Source: a virus. Taken from it: a stretch of DNA of 12,142 bases. Shown here in pieces: positions 2,307 to 10,335 of the stretch; position 1 is the stretch's first letter; every line of letters starts with the position of its first letter. The translations under genes were made by a program, and so were the position numbers. The stretch lies in UHGV virus genome UHGV-0116081. One strand, given 5' to 3'. A model generated the notes under the pieces. The model made no database searches, had not been told where the DNA came from, and saw nothing but the letters and a program-made list of their open reading frames with translations.

Positions 2307-3452
2307 ATGAAATACATAAAATCTTCATCGTTGCTGGCATTAACTTTGCTTTTTAGCTCTGGATTCGTTAACGCAGACAATAAACAAACGCTGATAGAAG
2401 CCGCTACCGCAGGGGATACCGCAGCACAAAGTGAGTTAGGGACAAATTATTTTGATGGTGTCAATGGTTTTGATAAGGATGTAGTTGAGGCCAAGAAGTG
2501 GATTGATCTCGCTGCAGAAAAGGGAGACAAAGTAGCATATTATGCACTTGGGGTTATGTACACATTTGGCGAGGGTGTAGATAAAGACTTAAATAAAGCA
2601 GTTGAGTACTACAAACTTGCGGGAGATGCTCGTGAAGGTAGAGCCTATAACAATCTTGGTGCTATTTATCAAAAGGGGATGCTTGGTAAAGTAGATCATG
2701 CGCTCGCCATTAAATACTTCAAACTAGCCTCTGATGCCGGGTATGTTAAAGCTAGCTACCTTCTTGGTGCGTATTACCAATATGGTAAAGGTGTACAAAA
2801 GAGTTATAAAAAAGCTTTTACTTATTACAAAAAAGCGGCGGATCAAGGTAGTTCAGATGGCATGTTCGCATTAGGCACCTTATACGATGACGGTTTAGGT
2901 GTTAAACGCAACGATGCCGAAGCAATTAAGTGGTATAAAAAAGCTGCTGAACTCGGAAACGCCGATGCCATGACAAATCTTGGCATTATGTATGAGTATG
3001 GTGAAGGGGTTAAAAAAGACTATAAAAAAGCAGCTGAGCTTTATCAGGCTGCTTGTGATAAAGAAGATAAAAATGGCTGTGATTACATTGCAGAACTGAA
3101 AGAAAGCGGCAAATATCGAGCGCCGGCTTCCAAAGCCAAAACAAAATCCGCCACCCAGCGACTTATTGCTAAATCCATTGATAAGGGCGTTAACGCTACA
3201 TTTACCTGGCAGGGTGATGATGCTACCTTCACCGCTAATGATGGCAAAGTTGACTGCACCTTCCTGAAGGATTTTTCAGAGAAAGGAGGCAATCTGGCTA
3301 CCTCGTTTGTTTGCACCGATAACGTTCAAATCATACTGAAGCAATTCAGAGATACCAAGAATGCCTACCTCGCGGTAATGACTGACAACTTCAACACAGA
3401 AGTTAAATCATTTTCGGTCAATGTGTACGTGACTAATACTGGTTCAAACTAA
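2307..3452 (+). CDS. secreted Sel1-like repeat (SLR/TPR-like) protein with a non-repeat C-terminal domain
   Basis: Track ORF begins at a TTG (2262); the first ATG at 2307 gives MKYIKSSSLLALTLLFSSGFVNA, a classic Sec signal peptide with a VNA cleavage site. About six tandem ~36-aa Sel1-type repeats (e.g. AEKGDKVAYYALGVMYTFGEGVDKDLNKAVEYYKLA; ADQGSSDGMFALGTLYDDGLGVKRNDAEAIKWYKKAA). The last ~110 aa are non-repetitive with 4 Cys. Sampled lines are AT-rich (about 30-50% G+C by hand count). Confidence 0.85.
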   Translation: MKYIKSSSLLALTLLFSSGFVNADNKQTLIEAATAGDTAAQSELGTNYFDGVNGFDKDVVEAKKWIDLAAEKGDKVAYYALGVMYTFGEGVDKDLNKAVEYYKLAGDAREGRAYNNLGAIYQKGMLGKVDHALAIKYFKLASDAGYVKASYLLGAYYQYGKGVQKSYKKAFTYYKKAADQGSSDGMFALGTLYDDGLGVKRNDAEAIKWYKKAAELGNADAMTNLGIMYEYGEGVKKDYKKAAELYQAACDKEDKNGCDYIAELKESGKYRAPASKAKTKSATQRLIAKSIDKGVNATFTWQGDDATFTANDGKVDCTFLKDFSEKGGNLATSFVCTDNVQIILKQFRDTKNAYLAVMTDNFNTEVKSFSVNVYVTNTGSN

Positions 3453-7124: not shown

Positions 7125-7892
7125 ATGGACGATTTATCGGTATACGCGAGATCATTGGATAAGGCTAAATACTATGTTTACTGTCTCTATGATACAGAAG
7201 ACAAGATGAAAAGACCGTTTTACATAGGAAAAGGCAAATCGACTCGTTGTCTCGATCACATCAAGTATCCCGATGACTCTCCCAAATCCATGCGGATCAA
7301 AGAACTTTTGGCTAATAAAAAATTAGGCATAGATATTCTTCGTCATGGTATGGATGAAACCACAGCCAAACTTGTTGAGGCGACATGCATCGACCTTATG
7401 GGGGTCGGAGAGCTTACGAATAAGGTACGAGGAAGTGGTTCCATGATGGGCAGAATATCACTGGACGCCTACCATCACTTAGTGCTGCAAGAGGAAACTG
7501 AAATTGCTCCTGAGCACGCCGGTCTTGCCTTCCTGCTAAACAGCACCTACAAGTCAGGAATGTCCGCTCTGGCATTATATGAAGCTACGCGTGGCGTATG
7601 GGCAAAGGTTCCAAGAGACGAGAATCTCAAATATGCCTACGCTACATATGGGGGCCTGATAATGGAAGTTTATCAGATTGAATGCTGGGTCAAAGCCGGT
7701 TCTCAGCAGTACTTTACAAGGGATATAGCTCTTGGCCCCGACACAAAACGTTATGAATTTGTTGGCAGAATAGCCGATGAGCATATTAGAAAACTGTATG
7801 TAGGCAAATTAATCAAGAAGCCACCAAGCTACGGCAGCCCTTTTGTGAAGGTTGGGGTGGTTAGGAATGAACATAGTGTTAGCGCGGCATAA
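7125..7892 (+). CDS. GIY-YIG nuclease-domain protein with an unrecognised C-terminal domain
   Basis: N-terminus YYVYCLYDTEDKMKRPFYIGKGKSTRCLDH matches the GIY...YIG...R...H arrangement of GIY-YIG nucleases (compare I-TevI and UvrC N-termini), with a downstream Glu (VEATCID) and Asn (TNKVRG) in plausible catalytic positions. C-terminal ~160 aa not recognised. Sampled lines are about 40% G+C, lower than the neighbouring replication genes. Confidence 0.7.
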   Translation: MDDLSVYARSLDKAKYYVYCLYDTEDKMKRPFYIGKGKSTRCLDHIKYPDDSPKSMRIKELLANKKLGIDILRHGMDETTAKLVEATCIDLMGVGELTNKVRGSGSMMGRISLDAYHHLVLQEETEIAPEHAGLAFLLNSTYKSGMSALALYEATRGVWAKVPRDENLKYAYATYGGLIMEVYQIECWVKAGSQQYFTRDIALGPDTKRYEFVGRIADEHIRKLYVGKLIKKPPSYGSPFVKVGVVRNEHSVSAA

Positions 7893-7906
7893 AGCTGACA
7901 CTGTAC

Positions 7907-7946
7907 TTATGCATTGGCGCGTACATTGCGCCAATGCATAATTTTT
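7907..7946 (+). terminator. intrinsic (Rho-independent) terminator between convergent genes
   Basis: Perfect 14-bp stem TTATGCATTGGCGC / GCGCCAATGCATAA (7907..7920 and 7928..7941) with a 7-nt loop, followed by TTTTT (7942..7946). Starts 15 nt after the GIY-YIG stop; the T-tract abuts the stop of the convergent minus-strand gene. Confidence 0.7.
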
Positions 7947-8304
7947 AACCTTTCTTCATCAACTCTCGTTTGATTTCGTCGGTACGCATCGTGACGTCGG
8001 CAGCAGTGATCGCCTCGTTCAGTTTCACGATGTCTTCGATTTCCTGCGGTGACTTCTCTGCCAGATGGAAAATGGCTGCACGAATCACATCAGAACGGGT
8101 GAACTTCTCAAAACGAGGGATAAACTTCATCATCTCCAACAGTTCGAAGTACTCGTCTTCCAGCGACATTGTGCGGCTTTTAATCTTCTCTTTGCCACGA
8201 GTCGGACGCCCCTGCGGTCTGACTGGCTGGCGCAGTGGAGTGCTGCTTTTGGCCGGTTCTTTAGGCTCATTGCGCTTTGCAAGGTCTCCCATTCTCATGG
8301 ACAT
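7945..8304 (-). CDS. small partition / centromere-binding-like protein (ParG-like, possible ribbon-helix-helix)
   Basis: 119-aa basic protein immediately downstream of parA; its ATG (8304..8302) overlaps the parA stop and is preceded by GGAGGAAG. Disordered Lys/Arg/Pro-rich N-terminus and helical C-terminus (SRTMSLEDEYFELLEMMKFIPRFEKFTRSDVIRAAIFHLAEK). Assignment is by size and context. Confidence 0.55.
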   Translation of the reverse strand: MSMRMGDLAKRNEPKEPAKSSTPLRQPVRPQGRPTRGKEKIKSRTMSLEDEYFELLEMMKFIPRFEKFTRSDVIRAAIFHLAEKSPQEIEDIVKLNEAITAADVTMRTDEIKRELMKKG

Positions 8305-8969
8305 TATTCTTCCTCCAGACTCAAGATGTAATCTACAAACTCTTCGAACTCGGCTTCTGCCTTCTTATCGCGTTCAGCGCCAGTCATTTCAAAGATAGAA
8401 CGACCTGCCTCTTCCGCATCGTCATAAACGTTACGGTTGTACAGATTGACCGGCGCAGCCTCGATGCCGAAAGTTTCGACAATTTCCTTCGCGGCCAGAA
8501 TACGTGATACCTGGGAAGGCAATGACGGACACTGGTTTATTACCGCGCGGATCTTAACTTTCTCGTTCACATTGCGAACGTTGTCGATAATCGGGTCGAT
8601 ATCACGCAGAGATTTCAAATCACGACGTTTAGGGCGCAGCGGGATGATGATTACATCAGCCATAAGCATCGCCAGACGCTGAATTTCGGAGTCAAAGCCA
8701 CCAGCATCTACCACTACATAATCAGTTCGCCCCTGAAGCGATTTAAGATGTTTGACGATGTCGTCCTGCACATAAGCGAACGGGATCAGTTCAAGATCTT
8801 CGTTCTGGCGACGGTCTTCACACCAGCTGGTCGTGGTGCGCTGGATATCGATATCGGTGACGTGAACCTTCTTTTTCTTTTTAACTTTGAGACATACCGC
8901 AATTTGCTGGGCAACGGTAGATTTGCCTGGGCCGCCTTTTGTGCCGCCAACCACAATGATCTTGGTCAT
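8304..8969 (-). CDS. parA: ParA-family partition ATPase (small, type Ib-like)
   Basis: 221-aa ORF with ATG at 8969..8967 and AAGGAAA upstream. Deviant Walker A KGGPGKST within MTKIIVVGGTKGGPGKSTVAQ, and a hydrophobic-D motif YVVVDAGGFD. Contains a lysine run KVKKKKKV encoded by an A-rich tract at about 8867..8884. Confidence 0.9.
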   Translation of the reverse strand: MTKIIVVGGTKGGPGKSTVAQQIAVCLKVKKKKKVHVTDIDIQRTTTSWCEDRRQNEDLELIPFAYVQDDIVKHLKSLQGRTDYVVVDAGGFDSEIQRLAMLMADVIIIPLRPKRRDLKSLRDIDPIIDNVRNVNEKVKIRAVINQCPSLPSQVSRILAAKEIVETFGIEAAPVNLYNRNVYDDAEEAGRSIFEMTGAERDKKAEAEFEEFVDYILSLEEE

Positions 8970-9115
8970 TGGTGAGTTTCCTTTGCGTGAATTATTGTCG
9001 TATGAAACAACTTGTTTTCTTATATGCGATATAGCCTAAATGCCTACGGCTGCGGTGTAAAGGTTATTTAGTAGGTTGTTATTGCCTATTGCTAGTAATT
9101 GTTATCATTTGTCTG

Positions 9116-9144
9116 TTGAAAAAAGTGACAATCATCTCTATATT
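9116..9144 (+). promoter_or_regulatory. candidate sigma70-type promoter (-35 TTGAAA, 17-bp spacer, -10 TATATT) facing the toxin-antitoxin operon
   Basis: Hexamers read directly at 9116..9121 and 9139..9144, each 5/6 to consensus, with a 17-bp spacer. The predicted start lies inside the inverted repeat at 9147..9169. Confidence 0.35.
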
Positions 9145-9146
9145 AC

Positions 9147-9169
9147 GTGTACGGTAAATTGCCGTACAC
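9147..9169. promoter_or_regulatory. inverted repeat GTGTACGG-N7-CCGTACAC overlapping the predicted transcription start (candidate operator)
   Basis: 8-bp perfect arms with a 7-bp spacer, read directly; sits just downstream of the candidate -10. Confidence 0.35.
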
Positions 9170-9190
9170 AATTTGATGACACATACGCAA

Positions 9191-9204
9191 TGGGCTATAG
9201 CCCA
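9191..9204. promoter_or_regulatory. 14-bp perfect palindrome TGGGCTATAGCCCA
   Basis: Exact self-complementary sequence. The core TATAGCC also occurs at 9030..9036, about 166 bp away. Candidate regulator or centromere-type binding site in the parA / TA intergenic region. Confidence 0.3.
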
Positions 9205-9250
9205 GTTAAATAACCTTTGAGTCGAAAACTCAGTTTAAATAGAGAGCAAT

Positions 9251-9277
9251 GATGGCCTTCCTACATCACCGGCCATC
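9251..9277. promoter_or_regulatory. inverted repeat GATGGCC-N13-GGCCATC immediately upstream of the antitoxin RBS
   Basis: 7-bp perfect arms read directly, ending 12 nt before the antitoxin ATG (9289), next to the AGGGGG Shine-Dalgarno. Position fits an autoregulatory operator. Confidence 0.3.
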
Positions 9278-9288
9278 AGGGGGTACAC

Positions 9289-9558
9289 ATGTCCGCACTG
9301 AAAAAGCAGCGCATCGATTTGAGATTAACCGATGACGATAAAAGCATCATCGAGGAAGCTGCCGCAATGTCTAACCAGAGCATTACCCAGTTCATGGTTA
9401 GCAGTGCATCCGAACGTGCCGTGAAGGTGATAGAGCAACACCGTAGACTGGTTCTAAGTGAAGAGTCCTGGAATCTGGTTATGGATGCTATAAGCAATCC
9501 TCCGGCACCGAACGACAAGCTGAAACGAGCTGCCAATCGTCTGAAAAGCATGGAGTAA
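9289..9558 (+). CDS. DUF1778-type (TacA/AtaR-like) antitoxin, ribbon-helix-helix
   Basis: 89-aa ORF with ATG at 9289 and AGGGGG about 5 nt upstream. Sequence pattern (KKQRIDLRLTDDDKSIIEEAAAMSNQSITQFMVSSASERAVKVIEQHRR...) matches the length and layout of DUF1778 antitoxins that pair with GNAT toxins, and it sits directly upstream of a GNAT ORF. Confidence 0.8.
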   Translation: MSALKKQRIDLRLTDDDKSIIEEAAAMSNQSITQFMVSSASERAVKVIEQHRRLVLSEESWNLVMDAISNPPAPNDKLKRAANRLKSME

Positions 9559-9565
9559 TTTACTC

Positions 9566-10087
9566 GTGAGCAATACGACGATCGAGATTTTCTCTGGAGA
9601 GAACGATTATGATCTAAACGGTTTTGATTGCGGCGAAGAGTCACTAAACGCATTTTTGACCAACCACTTAAAAAGACAGCATGAAGGAAAAATTCTTCGC
9701 GCTTATGTGCTTTGCACTAAAGAAGAAATACCAAAGGTATTAGGTTATTACACTTTGTCAGGCAGCTGCTTTGAGAAAGAAACCTTACCTTCAAAGAGTC
9801 AGCAAAAGAAAGTGCCTTATCGGAATGTCCCAAGTATCACTTTAGGCAGACTGGCTTTGGACAAATCTCTTCAAGGTCAGGGGCTTGGCTCAATGCTTGT
9901 AACTCACGCAATGCGTGTTGTGTACAATGCATCTCTTGCGGTAGGCATTCATGGGCTTTTCGTTGAGGCGTTGAACGATAAAGCCAGGGCGTTTTATAAA
10001 AGTTTGGGCTTTATCCAGCTGGTTGGTAACAACGATCGTTCTTTGTTCTATCCAACAAAATCTATCGAAAAATTGTTCGAAGAATAA
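9566..10087 (+). CDS. GNAT-family acetyltransferase toxin (TacT/AtaT/ItaT-like)
   Basis: 173-aa ORF with a GTG start at 9566, 7 nt after the antitoxin stop, with GGAG inside the antitoxin 3' end. GNAT acetyl-CoA-binding region (ITLGRLALDKSLQGQGLGSMLVTHAM) and overall pattern typical of toxin-type GNATs. Confidence 0.8.
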   Translation: MSNTTIEIFSGENDYDLNGFDCGEESLNAFLTNHLKRQHEGKILRAYVLCTKEEIPKVLGYYTLSGSCFEKETLPSKSQQKKVPYRNVPSITLGRLALDKSLQGQGLGSMLVTHAMRVVYNASLAVGIHGLFVEALNDKARAFYKSLGFIQLVGNNDRSLFYPTKSIEKLFEE

Positions 10088-10093
10088 TGTGTC

Positions 10094-10109
10094 CCCCTCA
10101 TTTGAGGGG
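10094..10109. other. short GC-rich hairpin between the convergent toxin and o-spanin genes (CCCCTCA / TGAGGGG)
   Basis: 7-nt complementary arms with a minimal loop, read directly. No clean T-tract on either side, so only a weak terminator candidate. Confidence 0.25.
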
Positions 10110-10119
10110 AACTTCGACA

Positions 10120-10335
10120 TCACCAACCGCAAACTCTCTCTCCCATCGTATTGTGAAAAAGGATTTGGCGTTCGGTTTCTTCGGTCATTACATCGTCATT
10201 GCTGATATAAATAGGTTCAGCGCCATCGCAGAACAACACGCTGGTGGTCTGTGGCTTAATTACGCACCCACTTATCATGCAGCTCACGATGAATGGCAGA
10301 AGCATCTTTCTGACGTATTTCACTGTTCGTCTCAT
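10120..10335 (-). CDS. o-spanin-like outer-membrane lipoprotein (Rz1-like), overlapped with the i-spanin gene
   Basis: 71-aa ORF with ATG at 10335..10333. N-terminus MRRTVKYVRKMLLPFIVSCMISGC has a basic n-region, hydrophobic core and lipobox I-S-G-C; short mature part ends in a Cys (RVCGW). Its 5' end overlaps the 3' end of the i-spanin ORF (10256..10335) in another frame, the classic overlapped spanin layout. Confidence 0.5.
   Translation of the reverse strand: MRRTVKYVRKMLLPFIVSCMISGCVIKPQTTSVLFCDGAEPIYISNDDVMTEETERQILFHNTMGERVCGW

What the first reader, a model, noticed from the sequence alone, without database searches (positions are those of the whole stretch)
8970..9288. A 319-bp intergenic hub between parA and the TA operon packed with palindromes and a candidate promoter
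Divergent control region containing a perfect 14-bp palindrome TGGGCTATAGCCCA (9191..9204) whose core TATAGCC recurs at 9030..9036; an 8-bp-arm inverted repeat at a predicted transcription start (9147..9169); a 7-bp-arm inverted repeat next to the antitoxin RBS (9251..9277); a palindrome AAACAA-C-TTGTTT (9004..9016); and a reasonable sigma70 promoter (9116..9144). Type Ib centromeres usually lie upstream of parA, so some of these are candidate parS sites and others TA operators.
Basis: seen in the sequence. Interest (0 to 1): 0.45.

Follow-up and report, generated by a model that had tools for sequence, protein, structure and literature searches.

The report
Two back-to-back control regions, not parS
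The 319-bp gap between parA and the toxin-antitoxin genes of this SSU5-type phage-plasmid is two independent promoter/operator modules placed back to back: one inverted repeat is the known KacA/AtaR-type antitoxin operator, two others are hairpins in the antitoxin mRNA leader, and the parA-side palindrome is one copy of an operator found at a dozen other promoters of the element, so none is shown to be a centromere.

Summary
All five repeats and the promoter are present (two coordinates differ by 1 nt), and local inverted repeats are enriched (P≈0.003).

The window is an SSU5-like phage-plasmid. The gap is a junction of two separately mobile modules.

**TA side (≈9110-9288)**
- σ70 promoter at 9116-9144, conserved in 127 distinct loci.
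- 9148-9168, TGTACGG-N7-CCGTACA, has the same half-sites as the DNA in the KacAT crystal structure. It occurs upstream of 151 of 152 KacA/AtaR-like antitoxin genes.
- The 14-bp palindrome (9191-9204), a hairpin at 9218-9232 and the repeat at 9250-9278 lie in a ~138-nt leader. Pairing is kept while bases change, so they are most likely RNA hairpins. The last one abuts the ribosome-binding site.

**par side (8970-~9080)**
- A ~66-bp near-invariant block holds a parA promoter (-35 at 9056-9061, -10 at 9033-9038).
- The palindrome at 9005-9017 recurs 13 times in the closest plasmid, at similar promoters. It persists in Yersinia pMT1, which lacks this ParA and its partner. It is therefore a regulon operator, not a par-specific site.

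The TATAGCC recurrence is at chance level. No centromere array was found; 3-4 TAGGY boxes are only candidates. Overall this is ordinary, with two modestly new side observations.

The parts
8304..8969 (-). parA: small (221 aa) ParA/MinD-type ATPase without an N-terminal DNA-binding extension
   Evidence: Pfam AAA_31, MipZ and CbiA. phrog_164, 'ParA-like partition protein', E=9e-53. NCBIfam ParA_partition 118 bits, below its cut-off of 180.
7945..8304 (-). Partner gene (119 aa): disordered basic N-terminal tail plus helical C-terminal part. Candidate centromere-binding or autoregulatory protein, ribbon-helix-helix (RHH)-like by motif only.
   Evidence: No Pfam hit. phrog_5111, function unknown. 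Weak hit to aCcr1 (an RHH family), E=2.4e-4, below cut-off. Invariant MGDLAK, SRTMS.EDE and FTRSDVIRAAI in homologs down to 43-49% identity. AF2 mean pLDDT 67, and no fold or sequence match in the PDB.
8979..8983 (-). parA Shine-Dalgarno (AAGGA), 9 nt before the ATG at 8969..8967
   Evidence: Read from the sequence.
8997..9063 (-). Near-invariant par control block, shared with SSU5 and with every relative examined whatever lies upstream of it
   Evidence: Only a few columns of the block vary, while 89% of parA third codon positions vary (mean diversity 0.31). Homology with SSU5 ends at about 9066.
9003..9019 (.). Palindromic operator GAAAACAAgTTGTTTCA (perfect core 9005..9017), just downstream of the predicted parA transcription start. 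One member of an element-wide operator family.
   Evidence: 13 perfect AAACANNNTGTTT sites in the 117-kb closest plasmid, against roughly 0.1-0.3 expected, most at promoters of the same build. Kept upstream of parA where the partner is 49-63% identical. Kept in pMT1, which lacks this par system.
9033..9038 (-). Predicted -10 of the parA promoter (TAGGCT).
   Evidence: TTTACA-17-TAGGCT in the window and in L357. TTGTCA-17-TAGGCT in L354. TTGACC-17-TACCAT in L358. TTGACC-17-TAACAT in L366. In SSU5 a terminator-like hairpin lies just upstream of the block, so the promoter must be inside it. An alternative, TAGGCA-16-TATAAG (9046..9019), is not excluded.
9056..9061 (-). Predicted -35 of the parA promoter (TTTACA)
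   Evidence: As for the -10.
9033..9089 (.). Candidate partner-protein boxes [GTA]TAGG[CT][AT]: 9033..9039(-), 9041..9047(-), 9071..9077(+) and 9083..9089(-, lineage-specific)
   Evidence: 4 boxes within 50 bp, reached by 0 of 300 shuffles, but the pattern was chosen after seeing the data. The inverted box upstream of the -35 is semi-conserved in all upstream contexts. By analogy, the distant par module L364 has six AGCTT[AG]C boxes, found only in the two intergenic regions flanking the operon. This is inference, not a demonstration.
9067..9110 (.). Variable junction between the par module and the TA cassette
   Evidence: At least 8 different sequences occupy this position in relatives.
9116..9144 (+). 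σ70 promoter of the antitoxin-toxin operon (TTGAAA-17-TATATT)
   Evidence: 10 of 12 match. The consensus GTTGAAA-17-TATanT, followed 4-5 nt later by the operator, holds in 127 distinct loci.
9148..9168 (.). KacA/AtaR-type antitoxin operator TGTACGG-TAAATTG-CCGTACA (repeat extends to 9147..9169)
   Evidence: Half-sites identical to the KacAT crystal DNA, AAATGTACGGTTATTAACCGTACATGA (PMC6698736), and to the native ataRT upstream region. Present with at most 1 mismatch upstream of 151 of 152 homologous antitoxin genes. DNA-contacting residues R8, D10 and R12 are identical.
9191..9204 (+). Leader hairpin HP1 (the '14-bp palindrome')
   Evidence: Folds in the minimum-free-energy structure. Homologous leaders carry AGGCGAUAAGCCU, CAGGCUCGAAGCCUG, CAGGCGAAUUGCCUG or UAGGUUCUUAACCUA at the same place. 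75-77% of cells paired, with compensatory changes in 2-3 of 5 pairs.
9218..9232 (+). Leader hairpin HP2 (UGAGU-CGAAA-ACUCA)
   Evidence: 66-71% of cells paired, with 3 of 5 pairs changed on both sides. This is the weakest of the three.
9250..9278 (+). Leader hairpin HP3 (UGAUGGCC-N13-GGCCAUCA), ending directly at the Shine-Dalgarno
   Evidence: Among 73 distinct leaders of at least 45 nt there are 37 different stems; 64% form an uninterrupted helix of at least 5 bp ending within 3 nt of the SD, and the median z-score is -2.2. 85-88% of cells paired, with 3-4 of 8 pairs showing compensatory changes.
9279..9283 (+). Antitoxin Shine-Dalgarno (GGGGG); ATG at 9289
   Evidence: Read from the sequence.
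9289..9558 (+). Antitoxin, TacA/DUF1778 family, 79% identical to KacA and 75% to AtaR
9566..10087 (+). GNAT acetyltransferase toxin (KacT/AtaT/TacT type)
   Evidence: Annotated as a KacT-type toxin in phage Cyrano.

Best explanation
The 319-bp gap is a junction of two unrelated and separately mobile control regions that face away from each other.

**Right part (about 9110..9288): the TA cassette.** This belongs to a kacAT/ataRT-type GNAT-RHH toxin-antitoxin cassette.
- A σ70 promoter (9116..9144) fires rightward.
- The inverted repeat TGTACGG-N7-CCGTACA (9148..9168) lies over the predicted start. It is the operator where two antitoxin dimers, clamped by toxin in an A4T2 complex, repress the operon. 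That mechanism is shown for KacAT and AtaRT and is inferred here from near-identical protein and DNA.
- The transcript then carries a leader of about 138 nt with three hairpins (9191..9204, 9218..9232, 9250..9278). The last ends exactly at the ribosome-binding site.
- These hairpins most likely act on the RNA, affecting translation or stability of the antitoxin message. Their existence as conserved structures is shown by comparison. Their effect is inferred.

**Left part (8970..~9080): the par module.** This belongs to the parA-partner module of SSU5-type phage-plasmids.
- A promoter (-35 at 9056..9061, -10 at 9033..9038) fires leftward into parA.
- Just after its start lies the palindrome GAAAACAAgTTGTTTCA. 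It is one copy of an operator that sits at the same place in a dozen or more similar promoters of the element, mostly in front of small acidic proteins and an orphan methyltransferase.
- It most likely binds an element-wide dimeric regulator, which would tie parA expression to that regulon.
- The partner protein's own sites are unknown. The best candidates are the 3-4 TAGGY boxes around the -35 and -10.

No centromere is demonstrated in the fragment.
For: **Identity of the element and the module boundary**
- 99.6% identity to a 117-kb IncFIB-typed E. coli plasmid that carries phage structural genes.
- Homology to phage SSU5 stops at about 9066.
- At least 8 different upstream contexts are joined to the same par block.

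**TA operator**
- Crystal DNA of KacAT is AAA-TGTACGG-TTATTAA-CCGTACA-TGA. The paper states that the palindrome spans the transcription start and that R8, D10 and R12 read the bases. Those residues are identical here.
- The native ataRT locus and an IncF plasmid locus have the same core right after a -10.
- 151 of 152 loci carry it. It occurs once in the window, against 0.01 expected.
- The promoter consensus is conserved in 127 distinct loci.

**Leader**
- 122 of 147 TA loci have no parA nearby, including the chromosomal loci that carry the homologous ~120-nt leader.
- On a plain MAFFT alignment 84.4% of cells pair, against 29-42% when partners are slid. There are 24 double-change cells against 12.3 in shuffles (0 of 500).
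- On a covariance-model alignment of 31 sequences the figures are 84.7% against 28-43%, and 48 against 19.7 (0 of 500).
- In an alignment-free test, 73 leaders gave 37 different stems next to the SD, 64% with an uninterrupted helix ending within 3 nt of it.

**par side**
- The block is near-invariant while parA third codon positions vary at 89% of sites.
- The promoter spacing is kept in modules whose partner is 43-63% identical.
- 13 perfect palindrome copies sit at promoters of shared architecture.
- pMT1 keeps 4 perfect and 3 one-mismatch copies, most of them in the same promoter units, yet has no homolog of ParA or the partner.
- The regulon region is in 55 Yersinia plasmids and the par module in none.
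Against: - No transcription start has been mapped. Both promoters and both start sites are predictions.
- The parA -10 (TAGGCT) matches only 3 of 6 positions, and an alternative promoter, TAGGCA-16-TATAAG, fits about as well.
- Covariation support for HP1 and HP2 is moderate: 66-77% of cells pair, and some homologs such as L344 lack HP1.
- The related sequences are not independent, so the shuffle control overstates significance.
- The covariance-model alignment is fitted to the structure.
- The pMT1 argument rests on one lineage, and its sites could be relics.
- In L366 the right arm of the par palindrome is degenerate.
- The binder of the palindrome is unidentified, so the partner protein is not excluded.
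- The TAGGY boxes were defined after seeing the data.
Confidence: 0.72

Rival explanations
1. The partner protein, a ParG/omega-like ribbon-helix-helix protein, binds the AAACAA-N-TTGTTT palindrome. The site upstream of parA would then be both autoregulatory operator and centromere. The other dozen copies would make the protein a global regulator with dispersed, promoter-embedded centromere sites, as with KorB and its OB sites in RK2, omega in pSM19035, or the dispersed centromere sites of N15.
For: - The palindrome is the most conserved element upstream of parA in modules whose partner is only 49-63% identical. In those same homologs the putative DNA-reading strand SRTMS.EDE is invariant.
- Type Ib partners usually autoregulate at the parA promoter (established knowledge of ParG and omega).
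- No other conserved non-coding DNA travels with the module.
- None of the small proteins encoded behind the other palindromes looks like a DNA-binding regulator.
Against: - pMT1 lacks both ParA and the partner but keeps the palindrome inside conserved promoter units, while flanking bases have diverged.
- L366 keeps the partner but has a degenerate palindrome.
- The distant relative L364 has no such palindrome. It has six AGCTTRC boxes flanking the operon, which suggests the family reads short boxes.
- The RHH fold of the partner is not confirmed.
Confidence: 0.2
2. The leader palindromes (9191..9204 and 9250..9278) are DNA sites for proteins: extra operators for the antitoxin-toxin complex, or sites for the par partner. 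The partner reading arises because GGCTATA in HP1 resembles the TTAGGCTATA at the parA -10.
For: - They are perfect DNA palindromes.
- A 13-nt stretch is 85% alike between 9024..9036 and 9190..9202.
- Some TA operons have more than one operator (general knowledge).
Against: - The antitoxin's DNA-reading residues are invariant, but the stems differ completely between loci: 37 different stems were found.
- None of the stems resembles TGTACGG.
- The hairpins occur in chromosomal loci without any par genes.
- Sister phage-plasmids with the same par module have replaced HP1 and HP2 by tandem repeats.
- The position next to the SD is fixed, which is what an RNA element would require.
Confidence: 0.06
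3. The repeats other than the operator are chance features of an AT-rich intergenic region and have no function.
For: Short two-copy repeats are abundant by chance. The leader as a whole folds only slightly better than shuffles (z=-1.9).
Against: - Inverted repeats are enriched over shuffles (P=0.003).
- There are 13 copies of the par palindrome, against about 0.1-0.3 expected.
- The structure is conserved with compensatory changes.
- The par block is near-invariant.
Confidence: 0.02

Closest known systems
kacAT (Klebsiella pneumoniae) and ataRT (E. coli O157:H7) promoter-operators; GNAT toxin with RHH (DUF1778/TacA) antitoxin; PDB 5ZGN, 6AJM, 6GTS
   Same: - The antitoxin is 75-79% identical, with identical DNA-reading residues.
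- The half-sites TGTACGG / CCGTACA are identical, with a 7-bp AT-rich spacer.
- The operator starts 4-5 nt after the -10 and so lies over the predicted start.
   Different: kacAT and ataRT have 25-29 nt between operator and ATG. Here there are 120 nt, carrying three hairpins. That leader class is shared with chromosomal loci of Salmonella, Enterobacter, Lelliottia, Morganella and others, and I found no description of it.
Type Ib plasmid partition loci: parFGH of TP228, delta-omega of pSM19035, par2 of pB171
   Same: A small ParA is followed by a small basic protein with a flexible N-terminal tail. Conserved control DNA lies immediately upstream of parA.
   Different: - There is no array of iterated short repeats. 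TP228 has 4-bp boxes, pSM19035 has heptads and pB171 has 6-bp repeats (my knowledge). Here there are only 3-4 TAGGY boxes.
- The partner has no detectable similarity to ParG or omega.
- The conspicuous palindrome is shared with unrelated promoters.
Dispersed operator families of plasmids and phage-plasmids: C1 operators of P1, KorB OB sites of RK2, dispersed centromere sites of N15 (from my knowledge)
   Same: One short site is repeated at many promoters of a single element, and one copy sits at the partition operon.
   Different: The binding protein is unknown. The sites are clustered: 10 lie within 11 kb, in front of small acidic proteins. No link to lysogeny control or to segregation has been shown.
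Hairpins in 5' leaders next to the ribosome-binding site that set mRNA stability or translation (for example the ompA leader; general knowledge)
   Same: A stable stem ends 0-3 nt before the Shine-Dalgarno and does not include it.
   Different: The effect is untested. There is no Rfam family. In short-leader relatives, the operator palindrome itself occupies that place.

Membership tests
KacA/AtaR-type (GNAT-RHH) TA operator | Downstream gene encodes a DUF1778/TacA antitoxin with the DNA-reading residues R8, D10 and R12, followed by a GNAT toxin | tested here: met
   Pfam TacA1 E=3.5e-26, and GNAT domains. 5zgn_A E=2.5e-41. The columns for R8, D10 and R12 are invariant. The roles of these residues are given in PMC6698736.
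KacA/AtaR-type (GNAT-RHH) TA operator | Pseudo-palindrome TGTACGG-N7-CCGTACA with an AT-rich centre | tested here: met
   Window 9148..9168. Crystal oligonucleotide. 151 of 152 loci.
KacA/AtaR-type (GNAT-RHH) TA operator | Operator overlaps the transcription start of the operon | tested here: inconclusive
   It begins 4 nt after the predicted -10. The start itself cannot be mapped with these tools.
KacA/AtaR-type (GNAT-RHH) TA operator | Bound by the A4T2 heterohexamer, with repression dependent on the toxin:antitoxin ratio | not testable with these tools
   Needs EMSA or ITC and reporter assays.
Type Ib partition locus with upstream centromere | Small Walker-type ParA (about 200-230 aa) without an N-terminal DNA-binding domain | tested here: met
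   221 aa, with the P-loop at residues 2-60. AAA_31, MipZ and CbiA. phrog_164. NCBIfam ParA_partition is below its cut-off.
Type Ib partition locus with upstream centromere | Partner is a small ribbon-helix-helix dimer | tested here: inconclusive
   The motif SRTMSLEDEY...FTRSDVIRAAI fits an RHH pattern, and there is a weak aCcr1 hit. No Pfam, PDB, hhalign or Foldseek match was found, and the model has low confidence in that part.
Type Ib partition locus with upstream centromere | Centromere is an array of iterated short repeats next to the operon | tested here: inconclusive
   No repeat array in 8970..9110. There are 3-4 TAGGY boxes. The distant relative L364 does have six AGCTTRC boxes flanking its operon.
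Type Ib partition locus with upstream centromere | The cloned site confers partner-dependent stabilisation or incompatibility | not testable with these tools
   Needs plasmid stability and incompatibility assays.
par-specific operator or centromere (the palindrome 9005..9017) | The site occurs only with the par module and co-occurs with the partner protein | tested here: not met
   12 further perfect copies lie elsewhere in the closest plasmid. Copies persist in pMT1, which has no ParA or partner homolog. 55 Yersinia plasmids carry the regulon region and none carries the par module.
Described cis-regulatory RNA family (Rfam) | Match to a curated covariance model | tested here: not met
   Only chance-level hits, E at least 0.18 and far below the gathering scores.
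Conserved RNA secondary structure (the leader hairpins) | Pairing is kept through compensatory changes, more than in controls | tested here: met
   Support is strong for HP3 and moderate for HP1 and HP2. Relatedness of the sequences inflates the shuffle control.

The most novel reading that the evidence does not exclude
The partner protein of this ParA is the binder of the AAACAA-N-TTGTTT palindrome. SSU5/pHCM2-type phage-plasmids would then use a small, family-restricted protein both as a global repressor of an establishment or anti-defence regulon (at least 13 promoters) and as the adaptor of a dispersed, promoter-embedded centromere. In that case parA, the orphan methyltransferase and the small acidic proteins would be switched together after infection.

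A second, more likely but less striking novelty also stands. A structured leader, whose last hairpin abuts the ribosome-binding site, would be a conserved post-transcriptional control element of a large subclass of GNAT-RHH toxin-antitoxin operons.
Probability: 0.2. Interest if true: 0.65.

Novelty: new member of a known kind. Interest (0 to 1): 0.4.

Why it matters
SSU5-type phage-plasmids are common in clinical Enterobacteriaceae, and the closest relative of this window carries a large multidrug-resistance region. It is not known how these elements are maintained as plasmids.

This analysis gives precise, testable targets:
- the antitoxin operator (safe to annotate by homology);
- a defined parA promoter block;
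- a dispersed operator that ties parA to a regulon of a dozen or more promoters;
- a conserved leader structure in a widespread toxin-antitoxin family whose studied members (kacAT, ataRT) lack it.

It also warns against reading every palindrome in a par-TA gap as a protein site or a centromere.

Tried and rejected
- **Bare operator pattern in IMG/VR.** The scan gave over 120 hits, but only 2 of the 80 fetched lay next to an antitoxin gene. These are chance matches in a huge collection and were not used.
- **RNAalifold on the MAFFT alignment.** It missed the hairpins because stems of different sequence were misaligned by one column. It did pair the HP3 loop CUUC with the SD, but with no covariation. 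I replaced it with explicit pair counts, a covariance-model alignment and an alignment-free test.
- **First covariance-model alignment.** It included minus-strand hits to the palindromic operator and was discarded.
- **Fold of the partner protein.** Tried with two AF2 runs, Foldseek against the PDB, a profile search of PDB sequences, a Pfam scan of all family members and hhalign against the KacA family. All were negative or of low confidence.
- **Regulator among the regulon genes.** Pfam and PHROGs scans of the genes behind the dispersed palindromes found no DNA-binding protein.
- **Literature.** I found nothing on SSU5 or pHCM2 partition or regulators, and no paper containing the palindrome string. 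The AtaRT regulation paper is not held.
- **Minus-strand promoter-like site at 9131→9104.** I set it aside. It lies outside the block shared with SSU5, whereas in SSU5 the parA promoter must lie inside that block.
- **A small ORF in the leader.** Considered and dropped, because it is not conserved.
Full report
**What the window is.** The region 7900..10150 is 99.6% identical to a 117-kb, non-mobilizable, IncFIB-typed E. coli plasmid (pJH51-3). That plasmid carries capsid, tail, lysis and DNA-replication genes. The region is 88-94% identical in part to phages Cyrano and SSU5. The window is therefore part of an SSU5-like phage-plasmid.

The genes around the finding are:
- a 221-aa ParA-type ATPase at 8304..8969(-);
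- a 119-aa partner protein without any family assignment at 7945..8304(-);
- a TacA/DUF1778 antitoxin at 9289..9558(+);
- a GNAT toxin at 9566..10087(+).

**Check of the observation.**
- The AAACAA-C-TTGTTT palindrome is at 9005..9017, one base to the right of the stated coordinates.
- The repeat beside the RBS has 8-bp arms (9250..9278).
- The promoter-like site at 9116..9144 matches 10 of 12 consensus positions.
- Local inverted repeats are enriched over dinucleotide shuffles. With arms of at least 7, there are 5 nested counts against 0.42 expected (P=0.003).
- The recurrence of the 7-mer TATAGCC is what chance gives in 319 bp (one search lists many such pairs).

**The gap is a junction of two modules.** Homology with SSU5 runs from the stop codon of the partner gene to about 9066 and then stops. 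In SSU5, two co-oriented genes and a terminator-like hairpin take the place of the TA cassette.

In 80 IMG/VR relatives the same block is joined to at least eight unrelated upstream sequences. On the parA strand the block reads CCTTTACACCGYAGCCGTAGGCATTTAGGCTATATCRCATATAAGAAAACAAGTTGTTTCA.

Conversely, 122 of 147 loci that encode a close homolog of the antitoxin have no parA nearby.

**The TA side.** The antitoxin is 79% identical to KacA and 75% to AtaR, and the N-terminal strand that reads DNA is identical.
- The KacAT paper gives the crystallised operator as 5'-AAATGTACGGTTATTAACCGTACATGA-3'. It says the palindrome spans the transcription start and that R8, D10 and R12 contact G5, C8 and G10.
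- Window 9148..9168 is TGTACGG-TAAATTG-CCGTACA.
- The native ataRT locus of O157:H7 has TGTACGG-TGACATA-CCGTACA. An IncF plasmid locus has TGTACGG-TATTTTT-CCGTACT. Each follows directly after a -10-like hexamer.
- Across 152 loci from genomes and metagenomes, 151 have the motif with at most one mismatch within 320 nt upstream of the antitoxin start.
- The consensus of 127 distinct sequences is GTTGAAA-17-TATanT, then 4-5 nt, then the operator.

Together they make a member of a structurally characterised operator family.

**The leader.** The distance from operator to ATG ranges from 13 to 225 nt in the family. The studied systems kacAT and ataRT have 25-29 nt. The window has 120 nt and belongs to a homologous class of about 120 nt. 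That class is also found in chromosomes of Salmonella, Enterobacter, Lelliottia, Huaxiibacter and Morganella.

At these places relatives have different bases that still pair. For HP3, for example:
- UGAUGGCC/GGCCAUCA
- GACCGCCC/GGGUGGUC
- GACCAUUU/AAAUGGUC
- CUGACCGUUCUU/AAGAGUGGUCAG
- GGCUACUUAA/UUGAGUAGCC
- GCCUCGCG/CGUGGGGC

The quantitative support is as follows.
- Alignment-free test: 73 distinct leaders of at least 45 nt gave 37 different stems. 64% have an uninterrupted basal helix of at least 5 bp ending within 3 nt of the SD. The median z-score is -2.2.
- Unfitted MAFFT alignment: 84.4% of cells pair, against 29-42% with slid partners. There are 24 double-change cells against 12.3 in shuffles (0 of 500).
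- Covariance-model alignment of 31 sequences: 84.7% against 28-43%, and 48 against 19.7 (0 of 500). HP3 is 87.7% paired, with compensatory changes in 4 of 8 pairs.

HP1 and HP2 are less consistent (66-77% paired), and some relatives lack HP1. No Rfam family matches.

The antitoxin's DNA-reading residues do not change while these stems do. The stems also keep a fixed position relative to the SD. They are therefore best read as RNA hairpins of the leader, not as protein sites. What they do is inferred, not shown. Candidates are setting antitoxin translation, protecting the message, or insulating the RBS.

**The par side.** From the -35 to just past the palindrome, only a few columns of the block vary. 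In the same sequences, 89% of parA third codon positions vary (mean diversity 0.31).

A promoter with constant spacing can be read in the window and in modules whose partner is only 43-63% identical:
- TTTACA-17-TAGGCT (window, L357)
- TTGTCA-17-TAGGCT (L354)
- TTGACC-17-TACCAT (L358)
- TTGACC-17-TAACAT (L366)

In window coordinates the -35 is at 9056..9061 and the -10 at 9033..9038. An alternative promoter, TAGGCA-16-TATAAG, cannot be excluded without mapping the start.

**The palindrome is not par-specific.** In the complete closest plasmid, AAACANNNTGTTT occurs perfectly 13 times, against roughly 0.1-0.3 expected. Three one-mismatch sites lie in the same kind of unit.

Ten sites lie within 11 kb. 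Most sit 12-25 nt upstream of a start codon. They share a whole promoter unit: cTTTTACGCC, about 17 nt, an AT-rich -10 such as GATAAT, then CACCAAnAAG-AAAACAAnTTGTTT.

The genes behind them encode small, mostly acidic proteins of unknown function and an orphan DNA methyltransferase. None looks like a regulator.

Y. pestis pMT1 shares much of this backbone but has a P7-type ParAB and no homolog of this ParA or its partner. It still keeps four perfect and three one-mismatch copies. Most sit in the same promoter units, whose flanking bases have diverged. In PLSDB the regulon region is found in 771 plasmids, including 55 from Yersinia. The par module is found in 778 plasmids, none from Yersinia. 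No paper in the library contains the site.

I therefore read the palindrome as an operator of an element-wide regulon into which the parA promoter is wired. Its binder is unknown.

That the partner protein itself is the binder is not excluded. Its putative DNA-reading strand is invariant, and the palindrome is kept upstream of parA in diverged modules. However, pMT1 and the degenerate palindrome in L366 argue against it. So does a distant relative, L364, whose par operon is flanked by six AGCTT[AG]C boxes and has no such palindrome.

By analogy with those boxes, the best candidates for the partner's own sites in the window are the [GTA]TAGG[CT][AT] boxes at 9033(-), 9041(-), 9071(+) and 9083(-). 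Four fall within 50 bp, reached by 0 of 300 shuffles, but the pattern was chosen after seeing the data. The inverted box upstream of the -35 is semi-conserved in every upstream context. This is a lead, not a result.

**The partner protein.** It has a conserved N-terminal MGDLAK, a proline- and arginine-rich disordered stretch, and the segment SRTMSLEDEY-FELLEMMKFIPRFEKF-TRSDVIRAAI. That segment fits the strand-helix-helix pattern of RHH proteins (my reading). There is also a weak sub-threshold hit to the RHH family aCcr1.

The family is narrow: 39 clusters, almost all on contigs of about 100-110 kb, none with a Pfam domain. AF2 models are confident only for the C-terminal helices. Neither sequence profiles nor Foldseek find a relative. 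Phage Cyrano annotates it as a 'RelE/ParE putative toxin', which nothing here supports.

**Comparison with what is known.**
- The TA promoter-operator is a member of the KacAT/AtaRT family by every feature that could be tested.
- The par locus resembles type Ib systems in gene size and order. It lacks the iterated repeat array that defines their centromeres, and its partner cannot be placed in a known fold family.
- The dispersed palindrome resembles the multi-copy operators of P1 (C1), RK2 (KorB) and N15. Its protein is unknown.

**Verdict.** It is partly wrong, in that the other TA-side palindromes are leader RNA hairpins, the par-side palindrome is a shared regulon operator, and the recurring 7-mer is chance.

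No centromere is demonstrated. As a whole the region is an ordinary pair of control regions. The two by-products (a conserved structured leader in a large subclass of GNAT-RHH operons, and a dispersed operator that includes parA) are modestly novel and directly testable.

Noticed in passing
window 9059..9070 and 9207..9218: A perfect 12-nt inverted repeat (AAAGGTTATTTA / TAAATAACCTTT), 136 nt apart. It links the edge of the par block, next to the -35, with the leader between HP1 and HP2. It is absent in phage Cyrano, where both arms differ. No transcript is predicted to contain both arms. It is either chance or a recombination trace.
   Followed up: partly
L086 516..712 (Kluyvera, 108-kb contig); L289-L297: Sister phage-plasmids have the same par block and a related TA cassette. 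In them the middle of the leader (the HP2 area) is expanded into tandem arrays, (CTGAAAA)n or (CCTGAAACTTAGAA)n. Copy number differs between contigs, giving leaders of 135-225 nt. HP3 next to the SD is kept.
   Followed up: partly
pJH51-3 (CP095457.1) 65652 and 101234..112246; loci L360, L361: About 13-16 promoter units share a -35, an AT-rich -10 and the AAACAAnTTGTTT palindrome. They lie in front of small acidic proteins, DUF1380 and DUF5983 proteins and an orphan methyltransferase (DUF4942). The set looks like an establishment or anti-defence regulon. No regulator was identified.
   Followed up: partly
L364 1978..2002 and 3000..3133 (metagenome contig, partner homolog P0040 at 34% identity): Six AGCTT[AG]C boxes, all on one strand, occur only in the two intergenic regions flanking a distant parA-partner operon. 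The arrangement is centromere-like, as with parC1 and parC2 of pB171.
   Followed up: partly
window 9156..9174: A second inverted repeat, AAATTG-CCGTACA-CAATTT, brackets the right half-site of the operator. CACAATTTGATG after the operator is conserved in part of the 120-nt leader class.
   Followed up: no
window 7125..7892 (+): A 255-aa protein with a LEM-3-like GIY-YIG nuclease domain lies just downstream of the partner gene. The homology with SSU5 and most other phage relatives begins only at the partner gene's stop codon (7947), to the right of this gene.
   Followed up: no
L003 2499..2858 (phage Cyrano CYRAN_29): The partner-protein homolog is annotated 'RelE/ParE putative toxin'. Nothing found here supports that name.
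   Followed up: partly
window 9131..9104 (-): A promoter-like site (TTGTCA-16-AATGAT) on the parA strand overlaps the TA promoter. It lies outside the block shared with SSU5, so it is probably not the parA promoter.
   Followed up: partly
L178 2140..2463 (IMG/VR): A DUF1778-like protein only 30% identical to the antitoxin also has a perfect TGTACGG-N7-CCGTACA 60 nt upstream. The operator may therefore be older than the KacA/AtaR subfamily.
   Followed up: no
pJH51-3 24.4-59.9 kb (L353, L360): The closest relative carries a large IS26-bounded multidrug-resistance region: tet(A), floR, sul2, sul3, dfrA12, aadA, cmlA1, blaTEM-1 and mef(B). It is inserted in the phage-plasmid backbone, outside the window.
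   Followed up: no
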